Source of the DNA: Candidatus Lokiarchaeum ossiferum
GTDB taxonomy: Archaea; Asgardarchaeota; Lokiarchaeia; Sigyniarchaeales; Promethearchaeaceae
DNA length: 32,000 nucleotides
Reading direction: 5' to 3'
Assembly (NCBI GenBank): GCA_025839675.1
Contig: CP104013.1
Coordinates: forward strand, 5,460,001-5,492,000
Shown here: positions 1 through 19,681 of the stretch, piece by piece
Layout of the letters: every line of letters starts with the position of its first letter
Numbering within the stretch: position 1 is the first letter of the stretch
Notes under the pieces: generated by a model
Databases searched by the model: none
Told to the model about the DNA's origin: nothing
The model's input: the letters and a program-made list of their open reading frames with translations, nothing else
Position numbers and translations under genes: made by a program

Positions 1-1255
1 TATCATTGTCCATCTGCCACGTGGCTGTATTATGTTTAAGTAATCGGAACTCAGAAAATGTTTTAAACAAATTTTGAAAATGAGGTGCGGACATTTCTGA
101 AACTTGACTGGAAACTTTATTTGTCGAGAAATCAGAAAGAATTACACTATTCTCATTGATTAATAAGAGTGCTTGAGCATTAATTTCCTGTGCAAACCAT
201 TTCAATTGTTCGCGCAAAATCTCCCTATTTGGGGACATGAGCGAAATCCCTTCTGAAAAAGACTTATTGAGACTATAAGCGTTAAAGATTGATGTGTTAA
301 AAAATTTGACTCGAAAATCCTTGGAATTTTCAAGTATTCGATTTTTAAGCAATTCAATTTTTTTTGTTAACTCATGATCTTCTTTGATATCAGGATCAGC
401 TTTGTGAAAATTAACAACAATTGGTGGGTGTTGTTTAAAGGATCGAAATATATTTAAAATTTGAAAGAGAAATTCTAAGGCTTCCACATAACGCGTTTCA
501 TCTCTGATATCAATTAAAAAATTTAATAAATTGGTATCGAAGAGATAAAGATCGGCTTGTTTCAGAAAATTCTGCCGGTATTTTAGCTGTCCGCCCACAT
601 CCCATTCGAGTAAACTTTGCCCCAACATTTGATCTTGGGAACGTTCGATTCCTTTAGTGGGCTTTATTCCTGTTAGTTCACTATATCGTTGCTTAATAGC
701 TCTTAGATAACTTGTCTTTCCGCTCGCATCCAAACCAGTAAATAATAATTTCAATTTTCGTGCATTGCTTATCGGTGAATTTACGTTTGAAACAAATTTA
801 TCCACTTTTTCTAAAAGTTCCACCATAAATTCTTTTGAATCTTTTAGATAATTATCATGAGTTATTTTATCTGCTGTTTCTGAGAAATATATTGATAAAT
901 CCTTCATATTCTCATATAAGAACGCTGCATGATTTTCATCAACAAGAATTGAAATTGTGGAGGCTTTTGCTTGGCCGCGAGCTTCCTTATCGTGGATAAG
1001 GAAGAAATATGTTAATCCGGTGAGACATAAATCTGGAAATGGTAAGATACCGAAATATTTGATGGAATCAAAAACTTGCCCTTCTTGGTAGATTTGTTCT
1101 CCCATGAGAAGTGAAATAGTTTTCATTGAAATGTTGATCTTATGGATTTCTGACATGTCTTCTGGAAAAGTTACCACGGGGGTGGGACCTTCATACTCAA
1201 AGACGGCAAAAATCAAACCCTTTATTATATTCGTTAACGATATTGCAGTTCCCAA
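1..1255 (-). CDS. Rag/Gtr-like small GTPase with N-terminal longin-like domain and C-terminal roadblock-like domain (partial; C-terminus runs off the window)
   Basis: Absent from the supplied ORF track because it is open to the window edge. I translated the minus strand by hand and found no stop from 1255 down to position 2. An in-frame TGA lies just upstream of a TTG at 1255..1253. N-terminal part: IIKGLIFAVFEYEGPTPVVTFP...KTISLLM...YFGILPFPDLCLTGLTYFF...STISILVDENHAAFLY. GTPase motifs: G1 LLFTGLDASGKTS, G3 WDVGGQ, G4 FHKAD, G5 NTSIFN. Roadblock-like stretch: EINAQALLLINENSVILSDF. It is collinear with the 514-aa paralogue at 18137..19681. Confidence 0.75.
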   Translation of the reverse strand, partial: MGTAISLTNIIKGLIFAVFEYEGPTPVVTFPEDMSEIHKINISMKTISLLMGEQIYQEGQVFDSIKYFGILPFPDLCLTGLTYFFLIHDKEARGQAKASTISILVDENHAAFLYENMKDLSIYFSETADKITHDNYLKDSKEFMVELLEKVDKFVSNVNSPISNARKLKLLFTGLDASGKTSYLRAIKQRYSELTGIKPTKGIERSQDQMLGQSLLEWDVGGQLKYRQNFLKQADLYLFDTNLLNFLIDIRDETRYVEALEFLFQILNIFRSFKQHPPIVVNFHKADPDIKEDHELTKKIELLKNRILENSKDFRVKFFNTSIFNAYSLNKSFSEGISLMSPNREILREQLKWFAQEINAQALLLINENSVILSDFSTNKVSSQVSEMSAPHFQNLFKTFSEFRLLKHNTATWQMDND

Positions 1256-1337
1256 TATTACCCCTCAACATTTCAATCTAGAAAATGATCTATGTATCAC
1301 ATTATATTTCCTTCTATTTTATTTTATTTGTATCAAT

Positions 1338-2171
1338 ATGTCAGATGTTGATCGATTATTGAAGGATTTAATTAAGAATCTATACCTTTTATACGAGTTT
1401 GAGAAACCTTCCAATTATCCTATAAATTTTGATTCGGGTTTATCACTCTTAGACACACCTACGAAAGAAAAAAAGAATGAAATATCGAAAAAAAACTCTC
1501 GTAACTTTCAATTGAAGAAACAAACTTCCTCACAAAGCCAAATAAAATTTCAAAAAAGTATGATTCAAAAATTGATGGATAATACTTATAGATTTGTCCC
1601 TGAAAATCGCATCTTTAAGAATTATTTTCACTGTTTTCAATATGTTTCCACGAAGTACTCTATGGAGTCAATCATTGATTCATTTTCTTGGCAAGAATTT
1701 GAAAAATTCATTGTGACTGCTTTAAATCATTATGGTTTTCATGCTTTTCGGACATTTCGGTATACTATCAATGAAAAACGCCACGAAGTGGATATTATCG
1801 CACGTGAAAACCGCAAAATTCTATTTATTGATGCAAAACATTGGAGTTCCCGTACTGTGAATATGGGTGCTTTGAAAAAAGCAGCAGTAGATCAAAAATT
1901 GCGTGCTTTAAATCTAATCACTGATAGGGTTTTATGCGGGAAATTACTTGAAAACTTGCAATATTTACCTCAATCTAAATTTAGATCCTTCCAAATTTTT
2001 CCCATTATTCTCGTTTCCAATAAAATTCAACATTTTCACATAGAAGATGGAGTTCCCATTTTATCAATATCACATTTTAATCATTTTTTAAACAATTTTT
2101 CCAAAATTGAATTTGATCTATCACCAATTGATATGAAAACTATCAATTTTCAAAAGAAACTGAAATTTTAA
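1338..2171 (+). CDS. PD-(D/E)xK restriction-endonuclease-fold (Mrr-cat-like) protein
   Basis: The core WQEFEKFIVTALNHYGFHAFRTFRYTINEKRHEVDIIARENRKILFIDAKHWS matches the Mrr_cat pattern (helix, D, (D/E)xK = VDII...IDAK). I place the start at ATG 1338 (MSDVDRLLKDL...). The track start at 1104 would overlap the N-terminal coding region of the divergent GTPase gene. Confidence 0.5.
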   Translation: MSDVDRLLKDLIKNLYLLYEFEKPSNYPINFDSGLSLLDTPTKEKKNEISKKNSRNFQLKKQTSSQSQIKFQKSMIQKLMDNTYRFVPENRIFKNYFHCFQYVSTKYSMESIIDSFSWQEFEKFIVTALNHYGFHAFRTFRYTINEKRHEVDIIARENRKILFIDAKHWSSRTVNMGALKKAAVDQKLRALNLITDRVLCGKLLENLQYLPQSKFRSFQIFPIILVSNKIQHFHIEDGVPILSISHFNHFLNNFSKIEFDLSPIDMKTINFQKKLKF

Positions 2172-3154
2172 TCAATATTTTGAGGGTGCAAAATAAAATT
2201 GGTGTGTTCCTTAAGTTCCTCTGGAATTGATGCGATTCTATTTCCATTCAAAGTGAATCTTTTTAAATCGTAAAGCAATTCCAAATTGGGTGGGACATAT
2301 TCTATGAGATTGTGTGACAAATTTAATTCTTCAATATTGGGTAATTCGCAGATATGCTTTGGTAGACTTAAGAGTTTATTATTTTCCATAGATAATATTT
2401 TGAGATTCTTAAGATTTTGAATAAATTTTGGGAGGTAGGTAATTTCATTATTGCTCCCATAGATCTTTTCAAGTTTTTTTAATTCGATAATGGATTTTGG
2501 TAGGTGAGTTATTTGATTCTCTTCAAAATCCAACTCTTTTAGGTGTCTAAGGTCTTGAAAATTCGTTGGTAATGTTGTTAGTTGATTTTGACTGATTTTC
2601 AGAATGATTAAGTTAGAAAGATTTGAAAAATTATCGGGTAATGATTTAAACTGGTTGCGTTTTAAATCGAGATATTTTAAACTGGCTAACTTTGAAAATG
2701 ATGTGGGTAAAATTTGCATCACATTGTTGTAAGCCTTAAAGGTTTCTAATTTTCGCAAGTTTCCTATGCTTTGGGGTAAATATTCTAATTCATTGGAGGA
2801 AACATCTAAATAAACGAGTTGCTGACAGTTTTCAATGGATGGAGGTATTTCTTTAATTTTGTTTGATTCAATAACTAACGCTTTCAAGTGAGCCAAATTT
2901 CCAATATTCTCTGGAAGATTTTTAAGTCCTTTTGAATAAAGTCCTAAGCCGGTGACGTGGATTCCTTCTTGAAAATATCCAAAGGTGGAGTATTTAAATT
3001 TTGAAACAAGGGGTATTTTTTCGCCAAGCAATGTTTCTAATTCCATTAATACCTCATATTCTTCCTTAAGAAGTGAATTTTCATGGTATTTTTTCATGGT
3101 TTCCGAAGTAGTCATCAATAGAAATTGTGCTTTTATTTTTTTTAAACCTTCCAT
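2168..3154 (-). CDS. Leucine-rich repeat protein (about 10 repeats of 23 aa, cytosolic type)
   Basis: Tandem 23-residue units of the form LxxLxxLxLxxNxLxxLPxxI. Examples: IGNLRKLETFKAYNNVMQILPTS, FSNLSNLIILKISQNQLTTLPTN, IQNLKNLKILSMENNKLLSLPKH. No signal peptide or TM segment is visible. Its stop overlaps the convergent gene stop at 2168-2171. Confidence 0.85.
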   Translation of the reverse strand: MEGLKKIKAQFLLMTTSETMKKYHENSLLKEEYEVLMELETLLGEKIPLVSKFKYSTFGYFQEGIHVTGLGLYSKGLKNLPENIGNLAHLKALVIESNKIKEIPPSIENCQQLVYLDVSSNELEYLPQSIGNLRKLETFKAYNNVMQILPTSFSKLASLKYLDLKRNQFKSLPDNFSNLSNLIILKISQNQLTTLPTNFQDLRHLKELDFEENQITHLPKSIIELKKLEKIYGSNNEITYLPKFIQNLKNLKILSMENNKLLSLPKHICELPNIEELNLSHNLIEYVPPNLELLYDLKRFTLNGNRIASIPEELKEHTNFILHPQNID

Positions 3155-3322: not shown

Positions 3323-5968
3323 ATGTTAACTTTTAATACTCTATTTAGAGCCAAAGATCGAATTTATTTACCATCATTGGTAGGTATCGTGATTACTATT
3401 TCTTTATTTACGGGAATGAACTTCTTTTTTGAAGCCAGTCAAAAGGCAAATTTTTCTGAGACATTTAAGATGTGTAATGACATAGAGATTTACCAAGATC
3501 ATCCCATATTTTATTTGGATGGGACTCGATGTTGTTATCCTAATACGAAATTCTGCGAAATTTTTCGGGAGAATGATGTCATAGCCAATGAACTTGTTGA
3601 AAATTCTTTATTAAAAATTAAAGGTATGTATCGAATGGGGGCAATAATGTTTGATAGAGGCTATTTCGTTCTAAATGATTACAAACAAAGAATCCATCCA
3701 AATTTAACAAAAACAATTGATTATTTCTTATCTATGAACGCAACGAGAGTACAATTTGAATTTTTTGAAACAGAATTCTATCATTCTGAGACTTTTCACG
3801 ATTATTTTAAAATTCTTAATGGGAGATTTCCTCGCAATAATTCAGAATTTTTAATTGATTATACTACTGCTTTAAAATATGGGGTCAAAGTAGGTGAAAA
3901 TCGAAACTTTACTTTCCGAACTGGAAATATTTGGCAAGCTGAACAAGATTTAGTTGTTCCAAATTTAATAGATTACTCTCTTCAAAATGCATCAATATGT
4001 GGGATTTATTTACCTCGGTATTATGAAACCAAATTTAATGATGAAACATTTTACTACTCATATACATTTGAAGATTTTCAGAATGGTTGTATATACAAAC
4101 AAAAGATGGTAGAAAACCCTATTATTTTTTGTTGGTCCAATTTTTCTTTACCCAATTGGAATCATCAAGTAGCAAGTTTAATCCAATCAATGGAGGATGA
4201 TCCTGCTTACACCTTGCGTTATTGGAATGGAGAGTTTTTTATTAATGGGGCTACAGGTTCTTCGTATGTAATTTTTTATCAGCGAGAAACTATTGATTAC
4301 AAAAAACTAAATCAAGAATCAGCCCAAATAGTTCAGCAAATTCGATACATTGGCAAATATTTACCTTTTCATTCAAGCATAAGAAGTTATGTTGAATACA
4401 CAATGGGAAAATATTTGACTGATATCCAAAATTTTCGCACAAATCTTTTTTTAATGAGTATTCCGATGATCTTAGGTTCCATTTTAATAGGTTCAAGCTT
4501 TCAAAAATCTTTAGAAAACAAGCGATTAAGGGAAGTCTTTCTATTAAGATGCAAAGGGGTTGATCTAAAACATATTAATAGACAATTATTGATGGAAATT
4601 ATTTCTTTAATTGCAATATCATGGATTTTTGGTGTTTTACTTGGAAATCTCACTTTCTATTTATTTTATGCCATTATGGGTGATTTGTTTTTAGATCCGA
4701 CTTTCAATGGCATTATATATCCCAATATCTCAGCAAATCCTTTAATTCTATCCGCGGTAATATGTTGCCTTGAAACTATAGTGATTTATTATCCTTTACG
4801 CAAAAAAATTAAAAAACAACACTTTAATGAGCTAAATCATTCCCTAAATTCTCCATTTGCAAATTCAGACGGTTTCGAGGTTCTTTATGATAAAATCCAA
4901 AAAACAAGTAGAAGTAAGTGCTTCATAAAACAACTATTTTATATGAAGAGAAAAAAATCTCAAAATATTTCTGAAAACTTGCGTAGAGCGGATTCTGAAG
5001 ATGTTATATATGATTATGGGCCTGATCATGATTCTAAAATTGATCTTTTTAAGATCAAATCGATTTTTGTCAAGCGATTGATAACTTTGGCACTTGTATT
5101 CATCCCATTGTTTTTCATATCAATCACAATATATAGCTATTTTTTTCCAATCCCTGATAATTTAAAACAGTCTGCAACATTTTTTAAACAAAATCCATTC
5201 ATGCTTGAAATTATTTTGATGAGTTCTATGGTATTGATGACCGTAAGTTTTTCAAGATTCATATTTCAAGACAGTCCATCTCTTTTTATTCGAGTCGTTA
5301 AGTGGATTTCGCATATTTTTGTAAAGGATTATGACACTCTTATCTCTATGGAAATAATTGGCAAAAAGAAATGGCTCAATAATTTAATTCTATATTCCAG
5401 TTTTATTAGCCTATTAGTATTCACAAACTTTATGTTTCAGAATAATGTTATGCTCTTCAATACATTCGAGTATTATGCTAATCAAAAGTTTGAATTTGTC
5501 TATGAATTGTTGCCCAATGATAAAGACGCATTGAAATTCTATAATTTTTTCTTCAAATTTTTAATTGTATCAAGTTTTTTTATCTTAATTGAATCTGCAA
5601 TTTTGCAAATCCTCCTCTTTAAAGAAAATCATATCATAAACCAGAGTCTAATGACTCGAGGGTTGACAACTTCAAAGTTATATAGAATTCTCCTTTTTGA
5701 ATCCATTATCATTTTTCTTTTAGGTTCTTTAATAGGCATAATTATTGGGGTTTTCTATGGGTTATTGACTTCCTATAATAGTTTTTTAAGATGGAATATT
5801 GTATATCTGCAAGATTTGGATCTCATTATTGATTTTGTGTCTCTAATTTCTCTGGAAATTGGGAAAATCTTGGTCATTATTTTAGGTGTTTTTGTTTTAA
5901 GTACTTCCCTCTTCTTTATTTATGCAATTAATCGAAAAAAACTCACATCTCATCCAAATGCATTGTGA
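3323..5968 (+). CDS. Double FtsX-module (MacB/YbbP-like) integral membrane protein with large extracytoplasmic domain, paralogue 1
   Basis: 881 aa. N-terminal TM (LPSLVGIVITISLFTGMNFFF) is followed by a roughly 340-aa hydrophilic Cys- and sequon-containing domain. FtsX-type module 1: KRLREVFLLRCKGVDLKHINRQLLMEIISL plus TMs. Then a cytoplasmic linker and FtsX-type module 2: ENHIINQSLMTRGLTTSKLYRILLFESIIIFLLGSLIG. An SD-like GGAGTGA lies 7 nt upstream of the ATG. Confidence 0.75.
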   Translation: MLTFNTLFRAKDRIYLPSLVGIVITISLFTGMNFFFEASQKANFSETFKMCNDIEIYQDHPIFYLDGTRCCYPNTKFCEIFRENDVIANELVENSLLKIKGMYRMGAIMFDRGYFVLNDYKQRIHPNLTKTIDYFLSMNATRVQFEFFETEFYHSETFHDYFKILNGRFPRNNSEFLIDYTTALKYGVKVGENRNFTFRTGNIWQAEQDLVVPNLIDYSLQNASICGIYLPRYYETKFNDETFYYSYTFEDFQNGCIYKQKMVENPIIFCWSNFSLPNWNHQVASLIQSMEDDPAYTLRYWNGEFFINGATGSSYVIFYQRETIDYKKLNQESAQIVQQIRYIGKYLPFHSSIRSYVEYTMGKYLTDIQNFRTNLFLMSIPMILGSILIGSSFQKSLENKRLREVFLLRCKGVDLKHINRQLLMEIISLIAISWIFGVLLGNLTFYLFYAIMGDLFLDPTFNGIIYPNISANPLILSAVICCLETIVIYYPLRKKIKKQHFNELNHSLNSPFANSDGFEVLYDKIQKTSRSKCFIKQLFYMKRKKSQNISENLRRADSEDVIYDYGPDHDSKIDLFKIKSIFVKRLITLALVFIPLFFISITIYSYFFPIPDNLKQSATFFKQNPFMLEIILMSSMVLMTVSFSRFIFQDSPSLFIRVVKWISHIFVKDYDTLISMEIIGKKKWLNNLILYSSFISLLVFTNFMFQNNVMLFNTFEYYANQKFEFVYELLPNDKDALKFYNFFFKFLIVSSFFILIESAILQILLFKENHIINQSLMTRGLTTSKLYRILLFESIIIFLLGSLIGIIIGVFYGLLTSYNSFLRWNIVYLQDLDLIIDFVSLISLEIGKILVIILGVFVLSTSLFFIYAINRKKLTSHPNAL

Positions 5969-5973
5969 GTTAA

Positions 5974-5989
5974 TTTTTTCCTTTTTTTT
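5974..5989 (+). terminator. Oligo-T tracts (T6, T8) directly after paralogue 1 stop
   Basis: ttttttccttttttttc begins 6 nt after the TGA at 5966-5968. Oligo-T termination is established for archaeal RNAP. Confidence 0.45.
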
Positions 5990-6222
5990 CCGGACTTCCC
6001 CTATTTCGTTTAAATCAATTTCTTTCATGTGGAGAATGGATACTTTTATAAAAATCACAAAACATGAAAATTGAAAATACAACAGATTAGTACCTATATA
6101 TAAACCGAGCTAATGTTTTTTGTGAAAGTTCATTTTTTTCTCCATCAATAAGTCAGAACTCAAGCAAATCTTTTTTTAATTAAACACCCAAAATAAAATA
6201 ATCTTTCAAAAATGTGAACATC

Positions 6223-8895: not shown

Positions 8896-8897
8896 AA

Positions 8898-8907
8898 TTT
8901 TTTTTTT
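8898..8907 (+). terminator. T10 tract 3 nt after paralogue 2 stop
   Basis: tag aa tttttttttt gtg. Confidence 0.5.
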
Positions 8908-9024
8908 GTGATATTTCAATTTTCATTATTGTAATAATTTTAAAATTGAGACTGAATTGATAAGTTCATGAATATCAAGACTAAATAATGGACGGAGAAA
9001 GATATTTTTTTTAATAATTATCGC

Positions 9025-9033: not shown

Positions 9034-9056
9034 GTATCAGAATATCGTGGTTCACA

Positions 9057-14313: not shown

Positions 14314-14841
14314 CTAAATCACTCTCATTAATTCAATTAGCTGTTCGACGGCCTTCTTCGGGGTTTTTGCTCCTTGAATTATTTCCTTTCTGCTTTCATC
14401 AATCCTTGTACCTGCCAATTTTTGAGACCAACCACCCGAAGTTGATAATGAAACAATTGGTTTTTTTAATCGCCAAGCAAAAGCAATTTCGCTTAGGGTT
14501 CCAGCTCCTCCGGATAAAGTTATTATTCCATCTGCGCTAGAAACCAATATAAAATTTCTTGCTTCTCCAATTCCACTTGGTATGATCAAATCTACATATT
14601 TATTTGCCTGAGATTTTTCATAGCCTGGCAAAATTCCAATTGTAAACCCTTTTTGAGATTTTACTCCTTTACAAACAGCCTCCATAGTTCCTCCCAAGCC
14701 TCCACATATGAGAATGTATTGTTTTTTTGCGATTTCTTGACCTAATTGTTCTGCTAGGTGATAATTCTCTTCAGAAATATTCGATGCTCCACAAACTGCA
14801 ATTACTCCATTATAGGATTGAAAAGATGGGATATTGATCAT
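14314..14841 (-). CDS. TIGR00725 / LOG (SLOG, lysine-decarboxylase-like) family protein
   Basis: IAVCGAS..., ICGGLGGTMEAVCKG, and the PGGxGTxxE-type motif LSGGAGTLSEIAFAW. Size is 175 aa. Confidence 0.8.
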   Translation of the reverse strand: MINIPSFQSYNGVIAVCGASNISEENYHLAEQLGQEIAKKQYILICGGLGGTMEAVCKGVKSQKGFTIGILPGYEKSQANKYVDLIIPSGIGEARNFILVSSADGIITLSGGAGTLSEIAFAWRLKKPIVSLSTSGGWSQKLAGTRIDESRKEIIQGAKTPKKAVEQLIELMRVI

Positions 14842-15059: not shown

Positions 15060-16355
15060 ATGGCGAAAAAGAAATCCAGTAAAAAGAAAGCGTCTTCATC
15101 TTCGAAGAAATCGACCGTCAAAAAGAAACCTGTTCCAAAAGCAAAAAAAACTTCCAAATCTAAAGCTGAACTAGAAGCAAAGAAGAAAGCTGAACTTGAA
15201 GCGAAGAAGAAAGCTGAACTTGAAGCGAAGAAGAAAGCTGAACTTGAAGCAAAGAAGAAAGCTGAACTTGAAGCGAAGAAGAAAGCTGAACTTGAAGCGA
15301 AGAAGAAAGCTGAACTTGAAGCGAAGAAGAAAGCTGAACTTGAAGCAAAGAAGAAAGCTGAACTTGAAGCAAAGAAGAAAGCTGAACTTGAAGCAAAGAA
15401 GAAAGCTGAACTTGAAGCGAAGAAGAAAGCTGAACTTGAAGCAAAGAAGAAAGCTGAACTTGAAGCAAAGAAGAAAGCTGAACTTGAAGCAAAGAAGAAA
15501 GCTGAACTTGAAGCGAAGAAGAAAGCTGAACTTGAAGCAAAGAAGAAAGCTGAACTTGAAGCGAAGAAGAAAGCTGAACTTGAAGCAAAGAAGAAAGCTG
15601 AACTTGAAGCGAAGGAGAAAGCTGAACTTGAAGCGAAGGAGAAAGCTGAACTTGAAGCGAAGGAGAAAGCTGAACTTGAAGCGAAGGAGAAAGCTGAACT
15701 TGAAGCTGTCGCTTCAAAACAAGATAAAGAGAATAAAGGTGTTGATAAAATGGGTCAATATAAAGAAAAAGAAGAAAAACAAGAATATACTACTAATGTT
15801 ATTGTGAATTCTGAGGATTTGACTACAGAATTCTTAACTGATTGGAGATGGCATGTTACCATACCTTTCCATGAAATTAACGAAGAAGTTGCCTTATTAG
15901 AAACTAAAGGTGATAGATTAAGCGAATATATTATTCAAAGTCTTAAAATGCACGCTTTCAGTGGTTATAATAAAATTGGATATTTCCCTGAAGATACTCA
16001 TGCTATATTGTGGAATGAAAAAGAAAATCTTTTCTCTTTAATTCTAACAAAGGATTATGAAATTATAGACAAAAATTATGACATAAATAAATGCCACATC
16101 TTTATGGATGAAGAAAACATGAATGAATTTATCAAATCTCAAAAGACAAAGAAGAAAATTGTCCATAAAAGTGAACGTACATTAGGATTACGAGAAAAAG
16201 AAGCCTATGATCTAGCAGATTATATAAAAACACTACCGAATATCATATATGGTCGTAATGATCTGGATTTAACCGAAGATGAGCGTTTTGCAATTAAAAT
16301 CTTGATAACAAAATTGCGTCCAAAGATACTAGGGTTGTATCATTTAATTGATTAA
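15060..16355 (+). CDS. Repeat protein: polybasic N-tail, (KAELEAKK)x22.7 ER/K-type helical spacer, about 190-aa unique C-terminal domain
   Basis: 431-aa ORF. N-terminus: MAKKKSSKKKASSSSKKSTVKKKPVPKAKKTSKSK. Then 181 aa of an exact 8-residue repeat, followed by the non-repetitive WRWHVTIPFHEINEE...LSEYIIQSLKMHAF...KIGYFPEDTHAILWNEKENLFSLILTKDY.... The downstream gene starts about 20 nt later on the same strand. Confidence 0.8.
   Translation: MAKKKSSKKKASSSSKKSTVKKKPVPKAKKTSKSKAELEAKKKAELEAKKKAELEAKKKAELEAKKKAELEAKKKAELEAKKKAELEAKKKAELEAKKKAELEAKKKAELEAKKKAELEAKKKAELEAKKKAELEAKKKAELEAKKKAELEAKKKAELEAKKKAELEAKKKAELEAKKKAELEAKEKAELEAKEKAELEAKEKAELEAKEKAELEAVASKQDKENKGVDKMGQYKEKEEKQEYTTNVIVNSEDLTTEFLTDWRWHVTIPFHEINEEVALLETKGDRLSEYIIQSLKMHAFSGYNKIGYFPEDTHAILWNEKENLFSLILTKDYEIIDKNYDINKCHIFMDEENMNEFIKSQKTKKKIVHKSERTLGLREKEAYDLADYIKTLPNIIYGRNDLDLTEDERFAIKILITKLRPKILGLYHLID
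15162..15706 (+). repeat. 24-bp perfect-phase tandem repeat, 22 full units plus a 17-nt partial (consensus aaagctgaacttgaagcRaagRag)
   Basis: Counted unit by unit. Variable positions are only nt 12 (a in unit 1), nt 18 (gca/gcg, synonymous; pattern a g g a g g g a a a g a a a g a g a g g g g) and nt 22 (aag to gag, K to E, in units 19-22 only). The repeat is in frame with the CDS at 15060. Confidence 0.97.
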
Positions 16356-16377
16356 TTTTTTTTAAAAACTAAATTTG

Positions 16378-17055
16378 ATGATAATCATGAAAAATGTACC
16401 CATATCCGATGAATTATTCAATAGAGTTATGAAATATCAAGAAGATAAAAGCCTTGAAGCCTTTGAACCCGTCGCAAAACGAATGATGGGGATCTATGAT
16501 CTTTCTCCGACTCAAGAAAAGAAAATAATGTTGATTGGGGAAGCAGGTGTTGGAAAATCGACTATCCGACAAACCTTTTTCAACTATGACGATCCAAAAA
16601 AAATGCTTGAAAATTCTCTAGAGCCAACCCGTGGAGTTGAAAATTTCAACTATATTATTTCTGACATTAATCTCCTTGTGTTGGATACTGCGGGTCAAGA
16701 AATAGAAGAATTACTTGAAAAAGATCCTGAAATGCATTTTAGCGACGTTGATGCTGTAATATATGTCGTAGATGCTTCCAAATATCAACAAGAGAATATG
16801 AAAATCTATGATTTACTCTATAGAATTAACAAAACTGCGAAATTTTATTCTCCTGAAGTGAAAATTTCGCTATACTTACATAAAATCGATTTGATCAAAG
16901 AAGATGCTGTAAAAACCTTTAAATTCCGTGCGAATTCTCGTCATAAAGGATATGAGTTAACAGAAAAAATTGAAATTCCCATGTTTTTTACTAGCATTGA
17001 AAAGGAGTTTATTAAGCAATTAGAACTCGCATTCTTAAATCTTTTTTATTTATAA
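16378..17055 (+). CDS. Rag/Gtr-like small GTPase, GTPase domain only (no roadblock C-terminal domain)
   Basis: G1 LIGEAGVGKST, switch I EPTRGVE, G3 LDTAGQE, G4 LHKIDL (Rag-type HKxD), G5 FFTSIEKE (compare Rag FRTSIWDE). The protein ends 18 residues after G5. Start is ATG 16378 (track TTG 16375 also possible), 19-22 nt after the upstream stop. Confidence 0.75.
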   Translation: MIIMKNVPISDELFNRVMKYQEDKSLEAFEPVAKRMMGIYDLSPTQEKKIMLIGEAGVGKSTIRQTFFNYDDPKKMLENSLEPTRGVENFNYIISDINLLVLDTAGQEIEELLEKDPEMHFSDVDAVIYVVDASKYQQENMKIYDLLYRINKTAKFYSPEVKISLYLHKIDLIKEDAVKTFKFRANSRHKGYELTEKIEIPMFFTSIEKEFIKQLELAFLNLFYL

Positions 17056-17075: not shown

Positions 17076-18035
17076 TTAAATCAATTTTTTTTTTTTTTGC
17101 TCGTCTTGTAGATATATTGAATTTCCTTCAATTATCTCTCCGATTTCATAGAAAATCATTTTAGATTTTTCAATTTCAGCTTGACAATGAGACTTTGTTA
17201 AATTACTACCAGTGATTATAAATCCAGAAGTTAGAAAGAGAAAAAGAAATTCTAAAAGTGTATAAGGCATACGATTTGAATGATATTGTTGGTTAATTTT
17301 TTCAATATCTAAAATTGCACCTTTCTTATTATACTCTAACAATTGAAGCAAAGTCCCCAGAATTCCCCCATTAGATATATCTTTACATGTTGTAATGAGT
17401 TTCCGGGCTATGCAATTGCGAATAAAATCTCTTTTTCCATAAAATTCTTCTGTTTCTTTCATTGTAATCGTGTCCCAATAATACTTATTGGCTGCTGCGG
17501 GTTTTCCATCTATATCCCATACGATTGCAATAAAATTTCCAATTTGCGCATTTTTAGCGGATAAAAAATGAGAAATTTTTGCAGTACCGATTATAGTAGT
17601 TGTTAAATGAGTATTTTCTGAATCTGTAGTAGTATGGCCTCGAATTAAAGGGATGTGAAATTTGTTCGTTGCTTTAAGCATGCCTTTAAATATTTGCTCA
17701 CCTAATTTTGGATCAGCATATTCTACTGTGCTAGTGCATGCAATTGGAATTCCACCTGCAGCCATAATATCGTCAATTCCAACATATATTGAGGAAAAGC
17801 CAGCGCCATAAGGGGATTTTATTACAAATTGAGGTAAAAGAGCATCTGTTGAAATTAGAATTAAATCTTCAGATTCAGGTGTTAAGCGAATTGCTGCAGA
17901 ATCTTCTCCAATGCTCGCATAAATTTGTTCTGATTTATATCCTTGTTCTCGAATCTGGTTTAAAATAGGTTTGAGTTTTTCTTTTTCTTGAATATTTCGC
18001 GAATTTTTAAACCTTTCAATAATGTCATCAAGCAT
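17076..18035 (-). CDS. AIR synthase-related (PurM-like superfamily) ATP-binding protein
   Basis: GEDSAAIRL...LILISTDAL (PurM-type DxAA/D motif), VGIDDIMAAGGIPIA, GHTT, and CKDISNGGILGTLLQL in the C-domain. The subfamily (ThiL/HypE/SelD-like versus an uncharacterised archaeal clade) cannot be resolved by eye. Confidence 0.65.
   Translation of the reverse strand: MLDDIIERFKNSRNIQEKEKLKPILNQIREQGYKSEQIYASIGEDSAAIRLTPESEDLILISTDALLPQFVIKSPYGAGFSSIYVGIDDIMAAGGIPIACTSTVEYADPKLGEQIFKGMLKATNKFHIPLIRGHTTTDSENTHLTTTIIGTAKISHFLSAKNAQIGNFIAIVWDIDGKPAAANKYYWDTITMKETEEFYGKRDFIRNCIARKLITTCKDISNGGILGTLLQLLEYNKKGAILDIEKINQQYHSNRMPYTLLEFLFLFLTSGFIITGSNLTKSHCQAEIEKSKMIFYEIGEIIEGNSIYLQDEQKKKKLI
17085..17098 (+). 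terminator. T14 tract about 30 nt downstream of the GTPase gene stop; candidate archaeal oligo-T terminator
   Basis: A run of 14 T on the plus strand. The same bases are read on the minus strand as AAA codons (QKKKKLI-stop) of the convergent gene. Archaeal RNA polymerase terminates at oligo-T. Confidence 0.4.
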
Positions 18036-18136
18036 TTATAATCAAATGTAAGTTATATATCAAAATTAATTAAAATTGAGAATTTCTCAGAAAAGAAACA
18101 AAGGATTTTTAGATTTGAAAATCCAATATTTTCCTA

Positions 18137-19681
18137 ATGATTAATAAAAATGAGAGTGAAAAAGTATCTTCCTATCCCTTTAATGATTTGCTTGTGAAAG
18201 GATGTGTATTCTCAATCTATTCTGATATGGGTCCTGAAGCAATTTTGTGTTATCCATTACCAAAAGATACATCTTTTTCCTTACTTGATCTTTCCTCTCA
18301 TATATCATCTTTTTCTCAACGTAATTACATGCAAGTTGCTGTAAAAAGCATTTCATTGTTATTGACGGATTATTCTTTCGAAGATAAATCAAATAACTAT
18401 CTTGAAAATATTCATATTTTTGGAGTTTTACCCTATCCAGATATGAAATGTGTCGGTTTGACCTATTTTTGTTATTATTTTTCTTCTAAATCTGATCAAT
18501 ATATACCTGCTACCATTACATTATTTGTACATGAAGATCATAGAAATTTTATTTATGATGCTTTTGATAGATTGAAGCAAGATATACAAAATTTTACTTC
18601 ATCTCTTATTAAGGTGTGTCAAGATCACCATATTTCGTCAGAATTGGGGGCTCAAGATTTTTGGGTGGAAAATTTACCTCGATTCATTAATTTCTTTCAA
18701 AAAATTGAAAAAATCCAATCAAAACCCATTTCGCCTATTACCCAAAAACGGCGGATCAAAATATTATTTACAGGATTAGAAAATACGGGGAAAACAAGTT
18801 TCCTTTTAACAATAAAACGAGAATTCAGTGCATTGCCCAGTTTACTCCCCACCACTGAACCAACAAAGGATAGTCTTGATTTTTTGGGAACAACGATTAT
18901 GAAATGGGATATCCCAGGTCAGAAAGTATTACGGGATGCTATTCTTAAGAATGCTGAACGCTATCTCTATGATTCAGATGTTATCTATTACTTTATTGAT
19001 ATTCAAGATCCACAAATTGCTGATTCTAAGATATTTTTAAGTCAGATTGTTTCTAGTTTAAGTCTATCAGGAATAAAAGTTCCAATTATCTTCATCTTAA
19101 CAAAATGTGATGAAGATATTATTCATTCCAGTAAAATAGCAAACCAGATCCAACACGTAAAAACAATTTTTTCTAATATAGTCAAGGATGTTCCTCATAA
19201 ATATTTTGAAACCTCTATTTTTTCTGATTATAGTATTTTAAATGCTTTTAGCTATGGAATTCGTCAATTATCTCCAAATAAAGAAATGTTAGAGCATCTC
19301 ATGTGGGAATTTATTGGTAGATTGGGTATGATAACTGGTCTCCTATTAAACGAGAACGGAATTGTAATTGCTTCTGCCGATATCTCAGATGGGGATACGA
19401 CAAACAAATTTCCCCATAGTCGAATCTTTGAAATTGCTGCACCTCAGTTTACCACAATCGCTCGCCAGTTTACCCAATATAATCCTCACAAGAGAAATGA
19501 TCTTATTAAATATCAATTTTCAAATGATGATATTGTGCTTCTAAAGAAATTTAAAATACTCGATTTTATGTTTTTCTCCTTATTTTACACAAAGAAACTT
19601 GAGTCCGTGGATCAGCTTGAGCAGAATTTTCCTGTTTTTATAGAAAAGATAAAAAATTTAATAGAAATGTATATTTCTTAA
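18137..19681 (+). CDS. Longin-like / Rag-type GTPase / roadblock-like three-domain protein
   Basis: N-terminal part: VKGCVFSIYSDMGPEAILCYPLP...VKSISLLL...IFGVLPYPDMKCVGLTYF...ATITLFVHEDHRNFIY. GTPase motifs: G1 ILFTGLENTGKTS, G3 WDIPGQ, G4 LTKCDED, G5 ETSIFSD. Roadblock-like stretch: RLGMITGLLLNENGIVIASADIS. Confidence 0.8.
   Translation: MINKNESEKVSSYPFNDLLVKGCVFSIYSDMGPEAILCYPLPKDTSFSLLDLSSHISSFSQRNYMQVAVKSISLLLTDYSFEDKSNNYLENIHIFGVLPYPDMKCVGLTYFCYYFSSKSDQYIPATITLFVHEDHRNFIYDAFDRLKQDIQNFTSSLIKVCQDHHISSELGAQDFWVENLPRFINFFQKIEKIQSKPISPITQKRRIKILFTGLENTGKTSFLLTIKREFSALPSLLPTTEPTKDSLDFLGTTIMKWDIPGQKVLRDAILKNAERYLYDSDVIYYFIDIQDPQIADSKIFLSQIVSSLSLSGIKVPIIFILTKCDEDIIHSSKIANQIQHVKTIFSNIVKDVPHKYFETSIFSDYSILNAFSYGIRQLSPNKEMLEHLMWEFIGRLGMITGLLLNENGIVIASADISDGDTTNKFPHSRIFEIAAPQFTTIARQFTQYNPHKRNDLIKYQFSNDDIVLLKKFKILDFMFFSLFYTKKLESVDQLEQNFPVFIEKIKNLIEMYIS

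What the first reader, a model, noticed from the sequence alone, without database searches (positions are those of the whole stretch)
1..19681. Five Ras-superfamily GTPases in under 20 kb, four of them Rag/Gtr-type paralogues
- The genes at 1-1255(-), 11999-12988(-), 16378-17055(+) and 18137-19681(+) all share Rag-type hallmarks. These are HK(x)D or TKCD in G4, the G5 signature T(S/T)I(F/E)(D/N/S/K) corresponding to Rag TSIWD, and WD(V/L/I)(G/P)GQ or DTAGQ in G3.
- Three of them continue into a roadblock-like segment that aligns with my recollection of the RagA C-terminal domain.
- A fifth GTPase (13208-13744) is Ras/Rab-like.
- Gtr/Rag-like GTPases and roadblock and longin domains have been reported as eukaryotic signature proteins in Asgard archaea. 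However, the clustering of four diverged paralogues with different domain complements, interleaved with an LRR protein and membrane proteins, suggests a locus-level functional unit rather than scattered paralogues.
- Rag GTPases work as roadblock-mediated dimers in eukaryotes. Which of these proteins pair with each other is an open and testable question.
Basis: partly seen in the sequence, partly recalled or inferred. Interest (0 to 1): 0.7.

Follow-up and report, generated by a model that had tools for sequence, protein, structure and literature searches.

The report
Conserved Rag-like GTPase neighbourhood in Lokiarchaeia
This stretch of the Lokiarchaeum ossiferum genome really does carry four Rag/Gtr-type GTPases and one Ras-like GTPase, and three of the Rag-like genes sit in a gene neighbourhood kept across about 80 related archaeal species; two of those three carry a built-in folliculin/NPRL2-type regulatory domain, so who regulates whom can now be tested.

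Summary
The window is Candidatus Lokiarchaeum ossiferum. Four ORFs score best against Pfam Gtr1_RagA and a fifth is Ras/Rab-like. Three of the four (here RagL1, Rag329, Rag514) have a C-terminal roadblock domain. Rag329 is the orthologue of the crystallised 'LokiRagO' (PDB 8YL2).

They are homologous longin domains of the FLCN/NPRL2/SMCR8 GAP type. Both carry the GP motif. Only RagL1 has an invariant Arg ('ARG') in the β4-β5 loop.

The gene order RagL1–Mrr-like–Rag329–TIGR00725(LOG-like)–AIR-synthase-like | Rag514–archaeosortase H–TBP recurs in 78 of 80 species-level loci. It holds even where Rag514 orthologues are only 31-35% identical.

The Ras-like GTPase, the short Rag226, the LRR protein, the repeat protein and the three FtsX permeases are lineage-specific insertions.

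Pairing is unresolved; rate covariation weakly favours Rag329–Rag514. The protein types are already published; the conserved neighbourhood and the catalytic/non-catalytic longin asymmetry appear new.

The parts
1..1255 (-). RagL1: GAP-type longin, then Rag/Gtr G domain, then roadblock. About 467 aa; the C-terminal 49 aa lie beyond the window start. Approximate domains: longin nt 776-1255, G domain nt 251-763, roadblock nt 1-238.
   Evidence: Pfam Gtr1_RagA 81.6 bits, Folliculin weak hit at aa 81-135. 17/17 orthologue N-domains hit PF11704 Folliculin. AF2 plus Foldseek on the N-domain find Loki longin 8YQG, NPRL2/3, Lst4, SMCR8/C9orf72 and FLCN-FNIP. Profile vs PDB: 8YL2 2.5e-60, RagA 1e-21. 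The MK-D1 orthologue WP_147663355.1 is labelled 'LGR' by Tran et al..
1184..1189 (-). GP motif (G23-P24) in the β1-β2 loop of the RagL1 longin domain.
   Evidence: Invariant in 27 orthologues. It lies between strands 11-20 and 23-30 of the AF2 model. PMC12290439 describes this motif as specific to GAP-type longins.
974..982 (-). A92-R93-G94: candidate arginine finger in the β4-β5 loop of the RagL1 longin domain.
   Evidence: D89, A92, R93 and G94 are invariant in 27 orthologues. It lies inside the segment matched by Pfam Folliculin and in the loop between strands 78-88 and 96-106 of the model.
1338..2171 (+). Mrr_cat/NERD-like protein (277 aa), divergent from RagL1. Part of the conserved neighbourhood.
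   Evidence: Pfam Mrr_cat 30.2 bits. Found between RagL1 and Rag329 in 40/52 loci with enough flank.
2168..3154 (-). Leucine-rich-repeat protein (328 aa). Accessory, present only in the MK-D1/L. ossiferum/Harpocratesius clade.
   Evidence: LRR_8 123.6 bits. Lies 61 nt downstream of Rag329 in the 88% relative L002. Absent as a recognisable homologue in the distant loci.
3323..11711 (+). Three tandem paralogous FtsX-like permeases (881, 893 and 884 aa). An L. ossiferum-specific insertion, not part of the conserved unit.
   Evidence: FtsX 33.9 bits. Absent from L002 and all other loci.
11999..12988 (-). Rag329: Rag/Gtr G domain plus roadblock. Orthologue of LokiRagO (PDB 8YL2).
   Evidence: Gtr1_RagA 85.4 bits. 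8YL2 E 4e-127 over aa 12-328. 8YL2 is titled 'Homo Tetrameric RagA-like small GTPase ... LokiRagO'. The MK-D1 orthologue WP_147663357.1 shares a 90% cluster with the 342-aa PDB-length sequence. Present in 56/60 loci.
13208..13744 (+). Ras/Rab-like small GTPase (178 aa). G3 reads DFGGI, so it lacks the catalytic Gln. Accessory.
   Evidence: Ras 70.6 bits. PDB best hits Rab8A/Rab/KRas at E about 4e-9. Homologue at this position only in L002, L004, L005 and L011.
13752..14312 (-). DEDDh (RNase T-type) exonuclease, 1 nt downstream of the LOG-like gene. Accessory.
   Evidence: Seen only in L. ossiferum and L002.
14314..14841 (-). TIGR00725 family (LOG-like / SLOG 'LDcluster4') Rossmann protein. Conserved neighbourhood member.
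   Evidence: TIGR00725 157.6 bits against a cut-off of 106.9. Present upstream of Rag514 orthologues in 66/68 loci.
15060..16355 (+). Repeat protein (431 aa) with (AELEAKKK)n encoded by a 24-bp x 22.7 tandem repeat at 15162-15706. It ends 20 nt upstream of Rag226. Lineage-specific.
16375..17055 (+). Rag226: stand-alone Rag/Gtr-like G domain with a roughly 45-aa N-extension and no roadblock. Lineage-specific insertion between the LOG-like and AIRS-like genes.
   Evidence: Gtr1_RagA 69 bits. PDB top hits Gtr1/RagA/Gtr2/RagC. Present only in L. ossiferum and the 88% relative. Small family: 4 representatives at E<=1e-30.
17076..18035 (-). AIR-synthase-related (PurM-superfamily) protein, divergently transcribed from Rag514. 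The most tightly linked neighbour.
   Evidence: AIRS and AIRS_C. Nearest NCBIfam models are methanogenesis marker 2 and sll0787, both below cut-off. Immediately upstream of the Rag514 orthologue in 78/80 loci, median spacer 94 nt. All 135 close homologues come from Loki-type genomes.
18036..18136 (.). 101-nt divergent intergenic region between the AIRS-like gene and Rag514 (putative bidirectional promoter).
   Evidence: Spacer length is conserved (q1 84, median 94, q3 95 nt), with a conserved AT-rich block in distant loci. Promoter function is inferred.
18137..19681 (+). Rag514: divergent GP-motif longin (no loop Arg), then Rag/Gtr G domain, then roadblock. Approximate domains: longin nt 18137-18733 (GP at 18230-18235; family-specific invariant R136 at 18542-18544), G domain nt 18749-19264, roadblock nt 19280-19675.
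   Evidence: Gtr1_RagA 64.6 bits. AF2 pLDDT 80, pTM 0.79. Foldseek: 8YL2, then RagA/C and Gtr1/2 full length at TMt 0.64-0.76. N-domain homologous to the RagL1 longin, hhalign prob 99.9, E 1e-32. Motif survey in 79 orthologues. 100% identical to NEF87_004665.
19692..20471 (-). Archaeosortase H (ArtH), convergent with Rag514. Conserved neighbourhood member.
   Evidence: NF041736 225.9 bits against a cut-off of 200. Downstream of Rag514 orthologues in 64/67 loci.
20716..21294 (+). TATA-box-binding protein. Syntenic with the block (35/59 loci) but presumably functionally unrelated. It marks the right-hand edge of the conserved synteny.

Best explanation
The locus is the L. ossiferum version of an ancient, vertically inherited Lokiarchaeial neighbourhood. 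It is built around three old Rag/Gtr paralogues.

**Shown**
- Rag329 (G domain plus roadblock) is the orthologue of LokiRagO.
- RagL1 and Rag514 have the architecture longin, Rag G domain, roadblock.
- Their longins are homologous to each other and belong structurally to the FLCN/NPRL2/SMCR8 GAP-longin class.
- Both keep the GP motif. Only RagL1 keeps an invariant Arg in the β4-β5 loop.

**Inferred mechanism**
- The proteins oligomerise through their roadblock domains, and probably through their longins as well.
- The RagL1 longin supplies an arginine finger that stimulates GTP hydrolysis on a Rag-type G domain. That G domain could be its own, that of a dimer partner, or that of Rag329 or Rag514.
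- Rag514 would provide the non-catalytic GP-longin partner, as FNIP, NPRL3 or C9orf72 do. On this reading the GTPase, its GAP and the dimerisation platform, which are separate proteins in eukaryotes, are fused here.
- The tightly linked AIR-synthase-like gene and the TIGR00725 (LOG-like) gene probably provide a metabolic or nucleotide-derived input to, or output of, this switch. This is the most speculative step.

The Ras-like GTPase, Rag226 with the repeat protein, the LRR protein, the exonuclease and the FtsX permeases were added later to a locus that tolerates insertions. They are not core components.
For: **Family and fold**
- Pfam.
- PDB sequence searches.
- AF2 model and Foldseek for Rag514.
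- RagGtr class by comparison with the published labelled set.

**Longin type**
- Folliculin Pfam hits in 17/17 RagL1 N-domains.
- Foldseek of the N-domain model hits Loki longin 8YQG (E 8e-8, TM 0.73), then NPRL2/NPRL3, Lst4, SMCR8/C9orf72 and FLCN/FNIP chains.
- The GP motif is invariant in both families. ARG is invariant in RagL1 (27 sequences) and absent from the same loop in 79 Rag514-type sequences.
- The two N-domains are homologous.
- PMC12290439 reports GP plus Arg as the signature of GAP longins and asks which Asgard GTPase is their partner. The fusion seen here answers that question by domain co-occurrence.

**Conservation**
- Same gene order and orientation in 78/80 species loci. 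This holds across the deep split where Rag514 is 31-35% and TBP about 42% identical, while the genes to the right of TBP differ between the two clades.
- The AIRS|Rag514 spacer is fixed at about 94 nt.

**Rate covariation**
- After removing the shared background, Rag329-Rag514 is the top pair in four data sets (r 0.61-0.78).
- The three GTPases form the top three pairs in the 16-taxon set.
- LOG-AIRS also covary.
Against: - No biochemical or expression data were available.
- The genes are spread over about 20 kb on both strands. In various lineages they are interrupted by clearly unrelated genes: NrdD, MtrH, TBP, FtsX, and five genes in MK-D1. Conserved order may therefore partly be inheritance without selection.
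- LokiRagO crystallised as a homotetramer, and Tran et al. obtained AF2 homodimers for longin-containing GTPases. Hetero-oligomers are therefore not required.
- The Folliculin Pfam hits are below the gathering threshold (21.5 vs 23.3 bits for the window protein). HMMER profile searches of PDB sequences with the N-domains found nothing.
- Rate covariation among paralogues of one family can arise without physical contact, and the Mantel test does not fully correct for phylogeny.
- I could not test whether the Arg can reach any nucleotide pocket.
- The AIRS/LOG link to GTPase function rests on adjacency only.
Confidence: 0.5

Rival explanations
1. Synteny by descent only. The three Rag-like genes are independent paralogues with separate cellular roles. 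They sit in a slowly rearranging chromosomal segment, and the neighbourhood has no functional meaning. The extra GTPases in L. ossiferum reflect the general expansion of small GTPases in this genome.
For: - The block contains obviously unrelated genes such as TBP, NrdD, MtrH and PPDK.
- Orientations are mixed, and spacers are long and variable apart from AIRS|Rag514.
- Insertions are tolerated between almost every pair of genes.
- Liu et al. and Tran et al. report that Asgard ESP/GTPase genes generally do not form conserved neighbourhoods or operons.
- L. ossiferum is enriched in Gtr1/RagA GTPases.
Against: - The block survives across a divergence at which the adjoining genes on the right (FAU-1, MutS-like, OAT, CK, OTC) are no longer syntenic.
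- The AIRS-Rag514 pair is adjacent in 78/80 loci with a near-constant spacer.
- The AIRS-like family appears restricted to the genomes that have Rag514.
- The GTPases show the strongest residual rate covariation.
- RagL1 and Rag514 share a specific, otherwise rare architecture with complementary motif content.
Confidence: 0.3
2. The GTPases form a membrane or cell-surface control module. On this reading the Rag-like switches regulate surface-protein anchoring or envelope and protrusion remodelling through archaeosortase H, and in L. ossiferum also through the FtsX-type permeases and the LRR scaffold. This would resemble small GTPases specifying membrane domains.
For: - ArtH lies downstream of Rag514 in 64/67 loci.
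- Three FtsX-like permeases and an LRR protein are embedded in the L. ossiferum locus.
- Tran et al. hypothesise roles of Rab/Rag-like GTPases in protrusions or vesicles.
Against: - ArtH is convergent with Rag514 and is often separated from it by MtrH or other genes.
- ArtH shows little residual covariation with the GTPases.
- The FtsX genes are a single-lineage insertion.
- None of the GTPases shows an obvious membrane-anchoring motif in its sequence (direct reading only, not analysed further).
Confidence: 0.12
3. An anti-virus or conflict island. GTPases, an LRR protein, an Mrr-type nuclease, a SLOG/LOG-like nucleotide sensor and a DEDDh exonuclease would form an NTPase-centred defence system.
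For: - The domain repertoire resembles the components of nucleotide-centric conflict systems: Mrr_cat/NERD, LDcluster4 SLOG, LRR and DEDDh.
- There are weak PADLOC hits of the LOG-like protein to PsyrA and of the exonuclease to a cas-associated DEDDh model.
Against: - PADLOC gives no significant system-level match. All GTPases, the Mrr-like protein, the LRR protein and AIRS score nothing or only P-loop-level hits.
- The core is vertically inherited in a fixed chromosomal context next to TBP in about 80 species. This is unlike the patchy, mobile distribution of defence islands.
- No relative of Rag226 was found on viral contigs.
- The LRR protein and the DEDDh exonuclease are not part of the conserved core.
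Confidence: 0.05

Closest known systems
Eukaryotic RagA/B-RagC/D (yeast Gtr1-Gtr2) GTPases
   Same: - Ras-superfamily G domain with an HKxD-type G4 and a TSI-type G5, followed by a C-terminal roadblock domain.
- The whole-chain fold of Rag514 matches RagA/RagC/Gtr1/Gtr2 (TMt 0.64-0.76, E 1e-15 to 1e-11).
- Pfam Gtr1_RagA is the best family.
- The published phylogeny nests eukaryotic Rag/Gtr within the Asgard RagGtr clade.
   Different: - No TOR kinase, Ragulator/EGO or lysosome context.
- Two of the proteins carry an extra N-terminal longin domain that no eukaryotic Rag has.
- The obligate A-type/C-type heterodimer has not been demonstrated, and the orthologue of Rag329 is reported as a homotetramer.
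- Rag226 lacks the roadblock domain altogether.
LokiRagO (PDB 8YL2) and LokiRagM (PDB 8ZLA, 9M28), crystallised Rag-like GTPases of Lokiarchaeota
   Same: - Rag329 is the direct orthologue of LokiRagO (E 4e-127, full length). LokiRagO is the MK-D1 protein WP_147663357.1.
- RagL1 and Rag514 are paralogues of both.
   Different: - No paper describing these entries is in the searchable library, so only the entry titles are available.
- The structures are of G-roadblock proteins. The longin-containing paralogues and the genomic neighbourhood are not covered by the entries.
Longin-domain GAP complexes FLCN-FNIP, GATOR1 (NPRL2-NPRL3) and C9orf72-SMCR8
   Same: - Longin fold with the GP motif in the β1-β2 loop and, in RagL1, an invariant Arg in the β4-β5 loop.
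- One Arg-bearing and one Arg-less paralogue, mirroring the catalytic and non-catalytic subunits.
- The targets of FLCN and GATOR1 are Rag GTPases.
   Different: - Here the longin is fused in cis to the Rag-type G domain and a roadblock domain. It is not followed by a DENN domain or an NPRL2-specific C-domain.
- Both paralogues keep the GP motif. In eukaryotes that is true of C9orf72 and SMCR8 but not of FNIP or NPRL3.
- GAP activity and longin heterodimerisation are untested.
MK-D1 'LGR'/'XGR' Rag-like GTPases catalogued by Tran et al. 2024 (PMC10933270)
   Same: These are the same orthologous proteins: WP_147663355.1 (LGR), WP_147663357.1 (XGR) and WP_147663364.1 (XGR). They were already classed as Rag-like with longin and roadblock fusions.
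   Different: - That study did not identify the N-domain of the Rag514 orthologue as a longin (it is labelled 'X').
- It did not classify the longin as GAP-type with an Arg/no-Arg asymmetry.
- It stated that GTPase genes generally do not sit with regulators in operons.
- The operon pair it modelled appears to be a different locus (WP_147663117/118).
Bacterial MglA-MglB (small GTPase plus roadblock-dimer GAP)
   Same: A prokaryotic small GTPase is regulated by a roadblock/longin-superfamily dimer that contacts the G domain.
   Different: - MglB is a separate roadblock homodimer without an Arg finger of the FLCN type.
- The window's G domains are not MglA-like: 17-26 bits against labelled MglA sequences.
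Asgard conserved operon of a LAMTOR1-like roadblock protein, a Rab-like GTPase and a DENN protein (Liu et al., 10.1101/2020.10.19.343400)
   Same: It is one of the few reported conserved neighbourhoods that link a small GTPase with roadblock/longin-superfamily regulators in Asgard archaea.
   Different: - Different GTPase family (Rab-like rather than Rag) and different partners.
- It is a compact operon, whereas this is a dispersed neighbourhood that also includes AIRS-like and TIGR00725 genes.

Membership tests
Rag/Gtr GTPases (Pfam PF04670; RagGtr clade) | Ras-superfamily G domain scoring best against Gtr1_RagA, with G1-G5 motifs of Rag type (HKxD-like G4, T[ST]I G5) | tested here: met
   Gtr1_RagA is the top Pfam family for all four ORFs, above the gathering score. 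The motifs can be read directly in the translations.
Rag/Gtr GTPases (Pfam PF04670; RagGtr clade) | Phylogenetic placement with RagGtr rather than ArfL, ArfR, MglA or RasL | tested here: met
   RagL1, Rag329 and Rag514 score 102-136 bits against labelled RagGtr sequences and 28-35 bits against ArfL, and they nest in the RagGtr clade of an NJ tree (labels from Vargová et al. Table S3). For Rag226 this test is inconclusive (46.6 vs 33.5 bits; basal in the tree), although its PDB top hits are all Gtr/Rag. No eukaryotic sequences were included in my tree.
Rag/Gtr GTPases (Pfam PF04670; RagGtr clade) | C-terminal roadblock domain (CRD) | tested here: met
   Met for RagL1, Rag329 and Rag514. Not met for Rag226, which ends after the G domain.
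Rag/Gtr GTPases (Pfam PF04670; RagGtr clade) | Obligate heterodimer of two paralogues through the roadblock domains | not testable with these tools
   No multimer prediction was available. The 8YL2 title says the Rag329 orthologue is a homotetramer. Rate covariation is highest for Rag329-Rag514, which is only suggestive.
Rag/Gtr GTPases (Pfam PF04670; RagGtr clade) | Function in TORC1 nutrient signalling on Ragulator/EGO | not testable with these tools
   Liu et al. report no TOR kinase homologue in Asgard archaea. There is no Ragulator-like gene in the window.
FLCN/NPRL2/SMCR8-type GAP longin domains | Longin fold most similar to the GAP-complex longins | tested here: met
   RagL1 N-domain model (pLDDT 82). 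Foldseek hits, after a Loki longin (8YQG), are NPRL2/3, Lst4, SMCR8/C9orf72 and FLCN/FNIP chains at E 4e-5 to 2e-2. Pfam Folliculin hits in 17/17 orthologues, best E 5e-6. The Rag514 N-domain qualifies through homology to RagL1's (hhalign 99.9%).
FLCN/NPRL2/SMCR8-type GAP longin domains | GP motif at the β1-β2 loop | tested here: met
   Invariant in RagL1 (27 sequences) and in Rag514-type proteins (79 sequences). The position was confirmed on the models.
FLCN/NPRL2/SMCR8-type GAP longin domains | Catalytic arginine finger in the longin domain | tested here: inconclusive
   RagL1 has an invariant A-R-G in the β4-β5 loop, inside the Folliculin-matched segment. Residue-level equivalence to FLCN R164 rests on my recollection of the FLCN sequence and was not aligned by a tool. 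Rag514 has no conserved Arg in that loop, but it has a family-specific invariant R136.
FLCN/NPRL2/SMCR8-type GAP longin domains | C-terminal DENN domain or NPRL2-type domain, and heterodimeric longin pair | tested here: not met
   The longin is followed by a Rag G domain and a roadblock domain, not by DENN or an NPRL2 C-domain. Heterodimerisation was not tested. These proteins should therefore not be filed as FLCN/NPRL2 orthologues, only as carriers of that class of longin.
FLCN/NPRL2/SMCR8-type GAP longin domains | GAP activity towards a Rag/Arf GTPase | not testable with these tools
   Requires a biochemical assay.
Ras/Rab-like (RasL) small GTPases, for ORF 13208-13744 | Best match to the Ras family, NKxD and SAK motifs, catalytic Gln, C-terminal prenylation Cys | tested here: inconclusive
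   Ras Pfam 70.6 bits. Rab8A/KRas are the top PDB hits. NKCD and SAK are present. G3 is DFGGI, with no Gln, and there is no terminal Cys motif (direct reading).
Conserved functional gene cluster or operon | Same genes, order and orientation across distant genomes | tested here: met
   78/80 loci. Per-gene frequencies: 66/68 (LOG), 56/60 (Rag329), 64/67 (ArtH), 40/52 (Mrr), 25/48 (RagL1, limited by the 10-kb flank).
Conserved functional gene cluster or operon | Co-directional, tightly spaced genes compatible with co-transcription | tested here: not met
   Strands are mixed. Median gaps are 510-2191 nt, with unrelated genes inserted. Only AIRS to LOG (first-quartile gap 51 nt) and the divergent AIRS|Rag514 spacer (94 nt) are tight.
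Conserved functional gene cluster or operon | Co-expression | not tested
   No transcriptome data were accessible.

The most novel reading that the evidence does not exclude
RagL1 and Rag514 together form a two-polypeptide, fused precursor-like version of the whole eukaryotic Rag-plus-longin-GAP machine. In this reading an Arg-bearing longin (like FLCN, NPRL2 or SMCR8) pairs with an Arg-less GP-longin (like C9orf72 or FNIP). Each is covalently attached to its own Rag G domain and roadblock dimerisation domain. Rag329 (LokiRagO) acts as a third, co-evolving subunit. The assembly is wired to a PurM-like enzyme and a LOG-like nucleotide-binding protein. That would make it a pre-TOR, prokaryotic nutrient- or nucleotide-sensing Rag pathway conserved throughout Lokiarchaeia.
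Probability: 0.15. Interest if true: 0.85.

Novelty: new variant of a known kind. Interest (0 to 1): 0.55.

Why it matters
- **The usual obstacle.** Asgard small GTPases and longin/roadblock proteins are numerous, but partners can almost never be assigned because the genes rarely share conserved neighbourhoods (Liu et al., Tran et al.).
- **What this locus offers.** It is an exception with two concrete handles:
  1. A domain fusion directly ties the GP-motif/Arg-finger 'GAP longin' class to Rag/Gtr G domains. This bears on the question left open in PMC12290439 of which Asgard GTPase those longins serve.
  2. A small, defined set of candidate partners is kept together across a whole class: three Rag paralogues, an AIR-synthase-like enzyme, a LOG-like protein and archaeosortase H.
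- **Why it is tractable.** Two cultivated species (L. ossiferum and MK-D1) carry the locus, and one component already has a crystal structure.
- **If the Arg finger works as proposed.** The Rag-plus-longin-GAP regulatory logic would then predate eukaryotes and TOR.

Tried and rejected
- **HMMER profiles of the two N-terminal domains against PDB sequences.** These gave only coiled-coil noise. Fold comparison and the Pfam Folliculin model were needed instead.
- **Literature on the solved structures.** Searches for 8YL2 and 'LokiRag' found no paper describing them.
- **Defence-system reading.** PADLOC found nothing meaningful. Rejected.
- **Mobile or viral origin of Rag226.** No relative was found on viral contigs.
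- **Spread beyond Lokiarchaeia.** Some MAG titles say Thor, Hod, Odin or Hermod. In the Rag514 tree these records interleave with Loki MAGs, and some are almost identical to them. I treat the labels as unreliable and claim Lokiarchaeia only.
- **Arf-like classification.** NCBI names these proteins 'ADP-ribosylation factor-like protein'. I rejected this on the basis of Pfam, PDB profile searches and the labelled-set comparison.
- **Heterodimer prediction.** I regard that evidence as weak.
- **Broader relatives of the AIRS-like protein.** I looked for homologues that might reveal an older AIRS-LOG module outside Asgard. All 135 hits were Loki-type, so the question stays open.

Full report
**Source and observation**

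The window has about 30% G+C. It comes from Candidatus Lokiarchaeum ossiferum: the 514-aa product of 18137-19681 is 100% identical to NEF87_004665 on a 6.04-Mb contig.

- Pfam places Gtr1_RagA first, above its gathering score, for four of them:
  - 1-1255(-), here RagL1: 81.6 bits.
  - 11999-12988(-), here Rag329: 85.4 bits.
  - 16375-17055(+), here Rag226: 69.0 bits.
  - 18137-19681(+), here Rag514: 64.6 bits.
- Pfam places Ras first for 13208-13744(+), here Ras178: 70.6 bits.
- RagL1 runs off the window. The full protein is about 467 aa.

**Are they Rag/Gtr or Arf-like?**

NCBI names these proteins 'ADP-ribosylation factor-like', so I tested the classification in four ways.
- PDB profile searches rank RagA/Gtr1 above Arf/Arl. 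RagL1 family: 80 vs 64 bits. Rag514 family: 75 vs 54 bits.
- Rag226 alone hits only Gtr1, RagA, Gtr2 and RagC at the top.
- An AF2 model of Rag514 (pLDDT 80, pTM 0.79) matches full-length RagA, RagC, Gtr1 and Gtr2 over G domain plus roadblock (TMt 0.64-0.76). Arf/Arl proteins match only the G domain at E about 1e-8.
- I took sequences with published class labels from Table S3 of Vargová et al.. The G domains of RagL1, Rag329 and Rag514 hit 'RagGtr' sequences at 136, 115 and 102 bits and 'ArfL' at 28-35 bits, and they nest within the RagGtr clade. Rag226 is only weakly placed (46.6 vs 33.5 bits).

The same paper reports that eukaryotic Rag/Gtr sequences nest among the Asgard RagGtr proteins.

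Ras178 is Rab/Ras-like. It lacks the catalytic Gln (G3 is DFGGI).

**What is already known about these proteins**

- The best PDB match of Rag329 is 8YL2 (E 4e-127 over aa 12-328). The entry is titled 'Homo Tetrameric RagA-like small GTPase from Asgard Lokiarchaeota (LokiRagO)'.
- 8ZLA and 9M28 are a monomeric paralogue, 'LokiRagM'.
- The MK-D1 orthologues are WP_147663355.1 (RagL1), WP_147663357.1 (Rag329, which is LokiRagO) and WP_147663364.1 (Rag514).
- Tran et al. 2024 already list these three among 74 MK-D1 small GTPases. They class them as Rag-like with architectures 'LGR', 'XGR' and 'XGR'.
- The L. ossiferum genome paper notes enrichment of Gtr1/RagA GTPases and NPRL2-like longins.

The protein kinds are therefore known.

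RagL1 and Rag514 each have 160-200 residues ahead of the G domain. The evidence on these domains is as follows.
- The two N-domains are homologous to each other (hhalign probability 99.9%, E 1e-32).
- All 17 RagL1-type N-domains tested hit Pfam Folliculin and essentially nothing else (best E 5e-6). None of the 17 Rag514-type domains does.
- An AF2 model of the RagL1 N-domain (pLDDT 82) is a longin. Its best PDB matches are:
  - a Lokiarchaeal longin, 8YQG (E 8e-8, TM 0.73);
  - then GATOR1 NPRL2/NPRL3 chains, the Lst4 longin, SMCR8/C9orf72 and FLCN/FNIP chains.
- PMC12290439 describes a GP motif in the β1-β2 loop plus an arginine finger as the signature of GAP-type longins. It reports the same signature in some stand-alone Asgard longins and asks whether ArfR or Rag/Gtr GTPases are their clients.
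- In the present proteins the GP motif is invariant in both families.
- RagL1 has an invariant D..A-R-G in the β4-β5 loop in all 27 orthologues. This loop lies within the Folliculin-matched segment.
- The corresponding loop of 79 Rag514-type proteins is variable and often acidic. A different Arg, R136, is invariant in that family.

From memory, the RagL1 segment 'FFLIHDKEARGQ' resembles FLCN 'FFIKDSLARGF' around R164. That resemblance is a lead, not a test.

The covalent fusion of this longin class to a RagGtr G domain is direct domain-co-occurrence evidence that Rag-type GTPases are the clients. The Arg/no-Arg asymmetry mirrors the catalytic and non-catalytic subunits of FLCN-FNIP, NPRL2-NPRL3 and SMCR8-C9orf72.

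Two smaller points follow.
- Tran et al. labelled the Rag514 orthologue's N-domain 'X' (unknown).
- The NCBI model of L. ossiferum RagL1 (441 aa) starts at 'MVTFPED'. It therefore lacks the first 27 residues, including β1 and the GP motif.

**Is the clustering a conserved unit?**

I looked up contigs encoding Rag514 orthologues at 88%, 56% and 53% identity. I then scanned one genome per species with a profile of the family, which gave 80 loci. I annotated every locus by BLASTP against the window's proteins.

Gene order:
- The order RagL1(-) Mrr-like(+) Rag329(-) TIGR00725/LOG-like(-) AIR-synthase-like(-) | Rag514(+) archaeosortase H(-) TBP(+) recurs throughout.
- It holds in the large clade where Rag514 is only 31-35% identical, RagL1 about 45%, Rag329 about 48% and TBP about 42%.
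- The AIRS-like gene lies immediately upstream of, and divergent from, Rag514 in 78 of 80 loci. One exception has no upstream sequence.
- The spacer is 84-95 nt in half of the loci and carries a conserved AT-rich block.

Frequencies in loci with enough flank:

| Gene | Loci with gene / loci with enough flank |
|---|---|
| LOG-like | 66/68 |
| Rag329 | 56/60 |
| ArtH | 64/67 |
| Mrr-like | 40/52 |
| RagL1 | 25/48 (it often lies beyond the 10-kb flank) |

Edges of the block and lineage-specific additions:
- To the right of TBP the two clades differ. One has FAU-1, a MutS-like gene, OAT, CK and OTC. The other has a CxxCxxCC protein, a macro-domain protein and PPDK. The block therefore outlasts its surroundings.
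- Ras178 is present only in four close relatives.
- Rag226 and the (AELEAKKK)n repeat protein are present only in L. ossiferum and an 88% relative.
- The three FtsX permeases are present only in L. ossiferum.
- The LRR protein is present only in the MK-D1/Harpocratesius/Lokiarchaeum clade.
- In other lineages unrelated genes (NrdD, MtrH, five genes in MK-D1) are inserted between core genes.

The unit is thus a conserved neighbourhood that tolerates insertions.

MAG titles naming Thor-, Hod-, Odin- or Hermodarchaeota interleave with Loki MAGs in the Rag514 tree. I therefore claim conservation within Lokiarchaeia only.

**The non-GTPase core genes**

- The membrane protein is archaeosortase H (225.9 bits, cut-off 200).
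- The LOG-like protein is a TIGR00725 family member (157.6 bits, cut-off 106.9).
- The AIRS-like protein is a PurM-superfamily member. Its nearest models are methanogenesis marker 2 and the sll0787 family, both below cut-off. It retains the GEDSAA nucleotide-site motif (direct reading).
- All 135 close homologues of the AIRS-like protein come from Loki-type genomes.
- PADLOC finds no defence-system signature.

**Who pairs with whom?**

No multimer predictor was available, so I used an indirect approach. I computed pairwise protein distances for each core family across loci. I then regressed out the mean of the other families and correlated the residuals.
- Rag329-Rag514 is the top pair in all four taxon and family sets (r 0.61-0.78; Mantel p at the floor of 0.002).
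- In the 16-taxon set containing all seven families, the three GTPases give the three highest values (0.77, 0.67, 0.60).
- LOG-AIRS also covary (0.30-0.61).

This is suggestive only. Paralogues can covary without physical contact, and the permutation test does not remove phylogeny. Set against it are the LokiRagO homotetramer and Tran et al.'s AF2 homodimers for the longin-containing GTPases.

**Conclusion**

- The finding is real and the family assignment is right.
- The idea of a locus-level unit is right in spirit but needs a redrawn core.
- The most informative features are the cis-fused GAP-type longins with their Arg/no-Arg asymmetry and the class-wide neighbourhood with an AIR-synthase-like and a LOG-like gene.
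- The individual protein types, one crystal structure and the genome itself are already published. I found no description of the neighbourhood or of the asymmetry in the searchable literature.

I rate it a new variant of a known kind, of moderate to good interest. It turns an open question, the clients and partners of Asgard longin GAP-like domains, into a short list of experiments in two cultivated organisms.

Noticed in passing
window 1175-1255 (-): The NCBI gene model of RagL1 in L. ossiferum (441 aa, starting 'MVTFPED') appears to be N-terminally truncated by 27 aa. Orthologues are 466-471 aa, and the missing part holds the invariant β1 strand and the GP motif. The likely true start is the TTG at 1255 (or the GTG at 1261), just after an in-frame stop.
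   Followed up: yes
window 3323-11711 (+): Three tandem paralogous FtsX-like permeases of about 880-890 aa, with no adjacent ABC ATPase gene. This is an L. ossiferum-specific insertion. It separates Rag329 from the LRR gene, which lies 61 nt downstream of Rag329 in the 88% relative (L002).
   Followed up: partly
window 15162-15706 (within ORF 15060-16355): A near-perfect 24-bp tandem repeat, 22.7 copies at 97% match, encodes (AELEAKKK)n in a 431-aa protein. Its C-terminal roughly 215 aa have no Pfam match. The gene ends 20 nt before Rag226, and the two may form a lineage-specific pair. In the 88% relative the region is called as two shorter ORFs.
   Followed up: partly
window 18036-18136; loci L016-L086 equivalent spacers: The divergent spacer between the AIRS-like gene and Rag514 is held at about 94 nt. 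In the distant clade it contains a conserved block, TTAAATATAAAGCTATTAATAATTAAATTTGCTTAAA. This may be a shared control region.
   Followed up: partly
Their Rag514 orthologues interleave with Lokiarchaeial MAGs and are sometimes nearly identical to them, so the labels look unreliable.
   Followed up: partly
L002:1-637 (+), just beyond the window's left edge in the relative: In the 88% relative a further small GTPase (more than 213 aa; Arf hit, with weak Ras and Gtr1_RagA hits) lies convergent with RagL1. The L. ossiferum cluster may therefore contain a sixth GTPase immediately left of the window.
   Followed up: no
L080:20318-21370 (+) and equivalents in about 18 distant loci: About 6 kb downstream of TBP many distant loci carry a roughly 347-aa protein. 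It has a C-terminal Ras-family G domain (156 bits) and a roughly 180-aa N-terminal extension of unknown type. There is no counterpart in the window.
   Followed up: partly
window 18542-18544 (R136 of Rag514): An Arg at the β5/helix junction of the Rag514 longin (motif E-x-x-x-R-[SGN]-F-[LI]-Y) is invariant in 79 orthologues but absent from RagL1. It could be structural or an alternative catalytic residue.
   Followed up: no
window 27600-30771 (-): Ornithine aminotransferase-like, carbamate kinase and ornithine carbamoyltransferase genes (arginine catabolism) lie downstream. They are syntenic with MK-D1 (L013) but not with the distant clade.
   Followed up: no
window 17076-18035 (-): The best database match of the AIRS-like protein is 97% identical and lies on a 6.27-Mb L. 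ossiferum contig. Rag514 matches at 100% on a 6.04-Mb contig. This suggests two L. ossiferum genome versions or strains in the databases.
   Followed up: no
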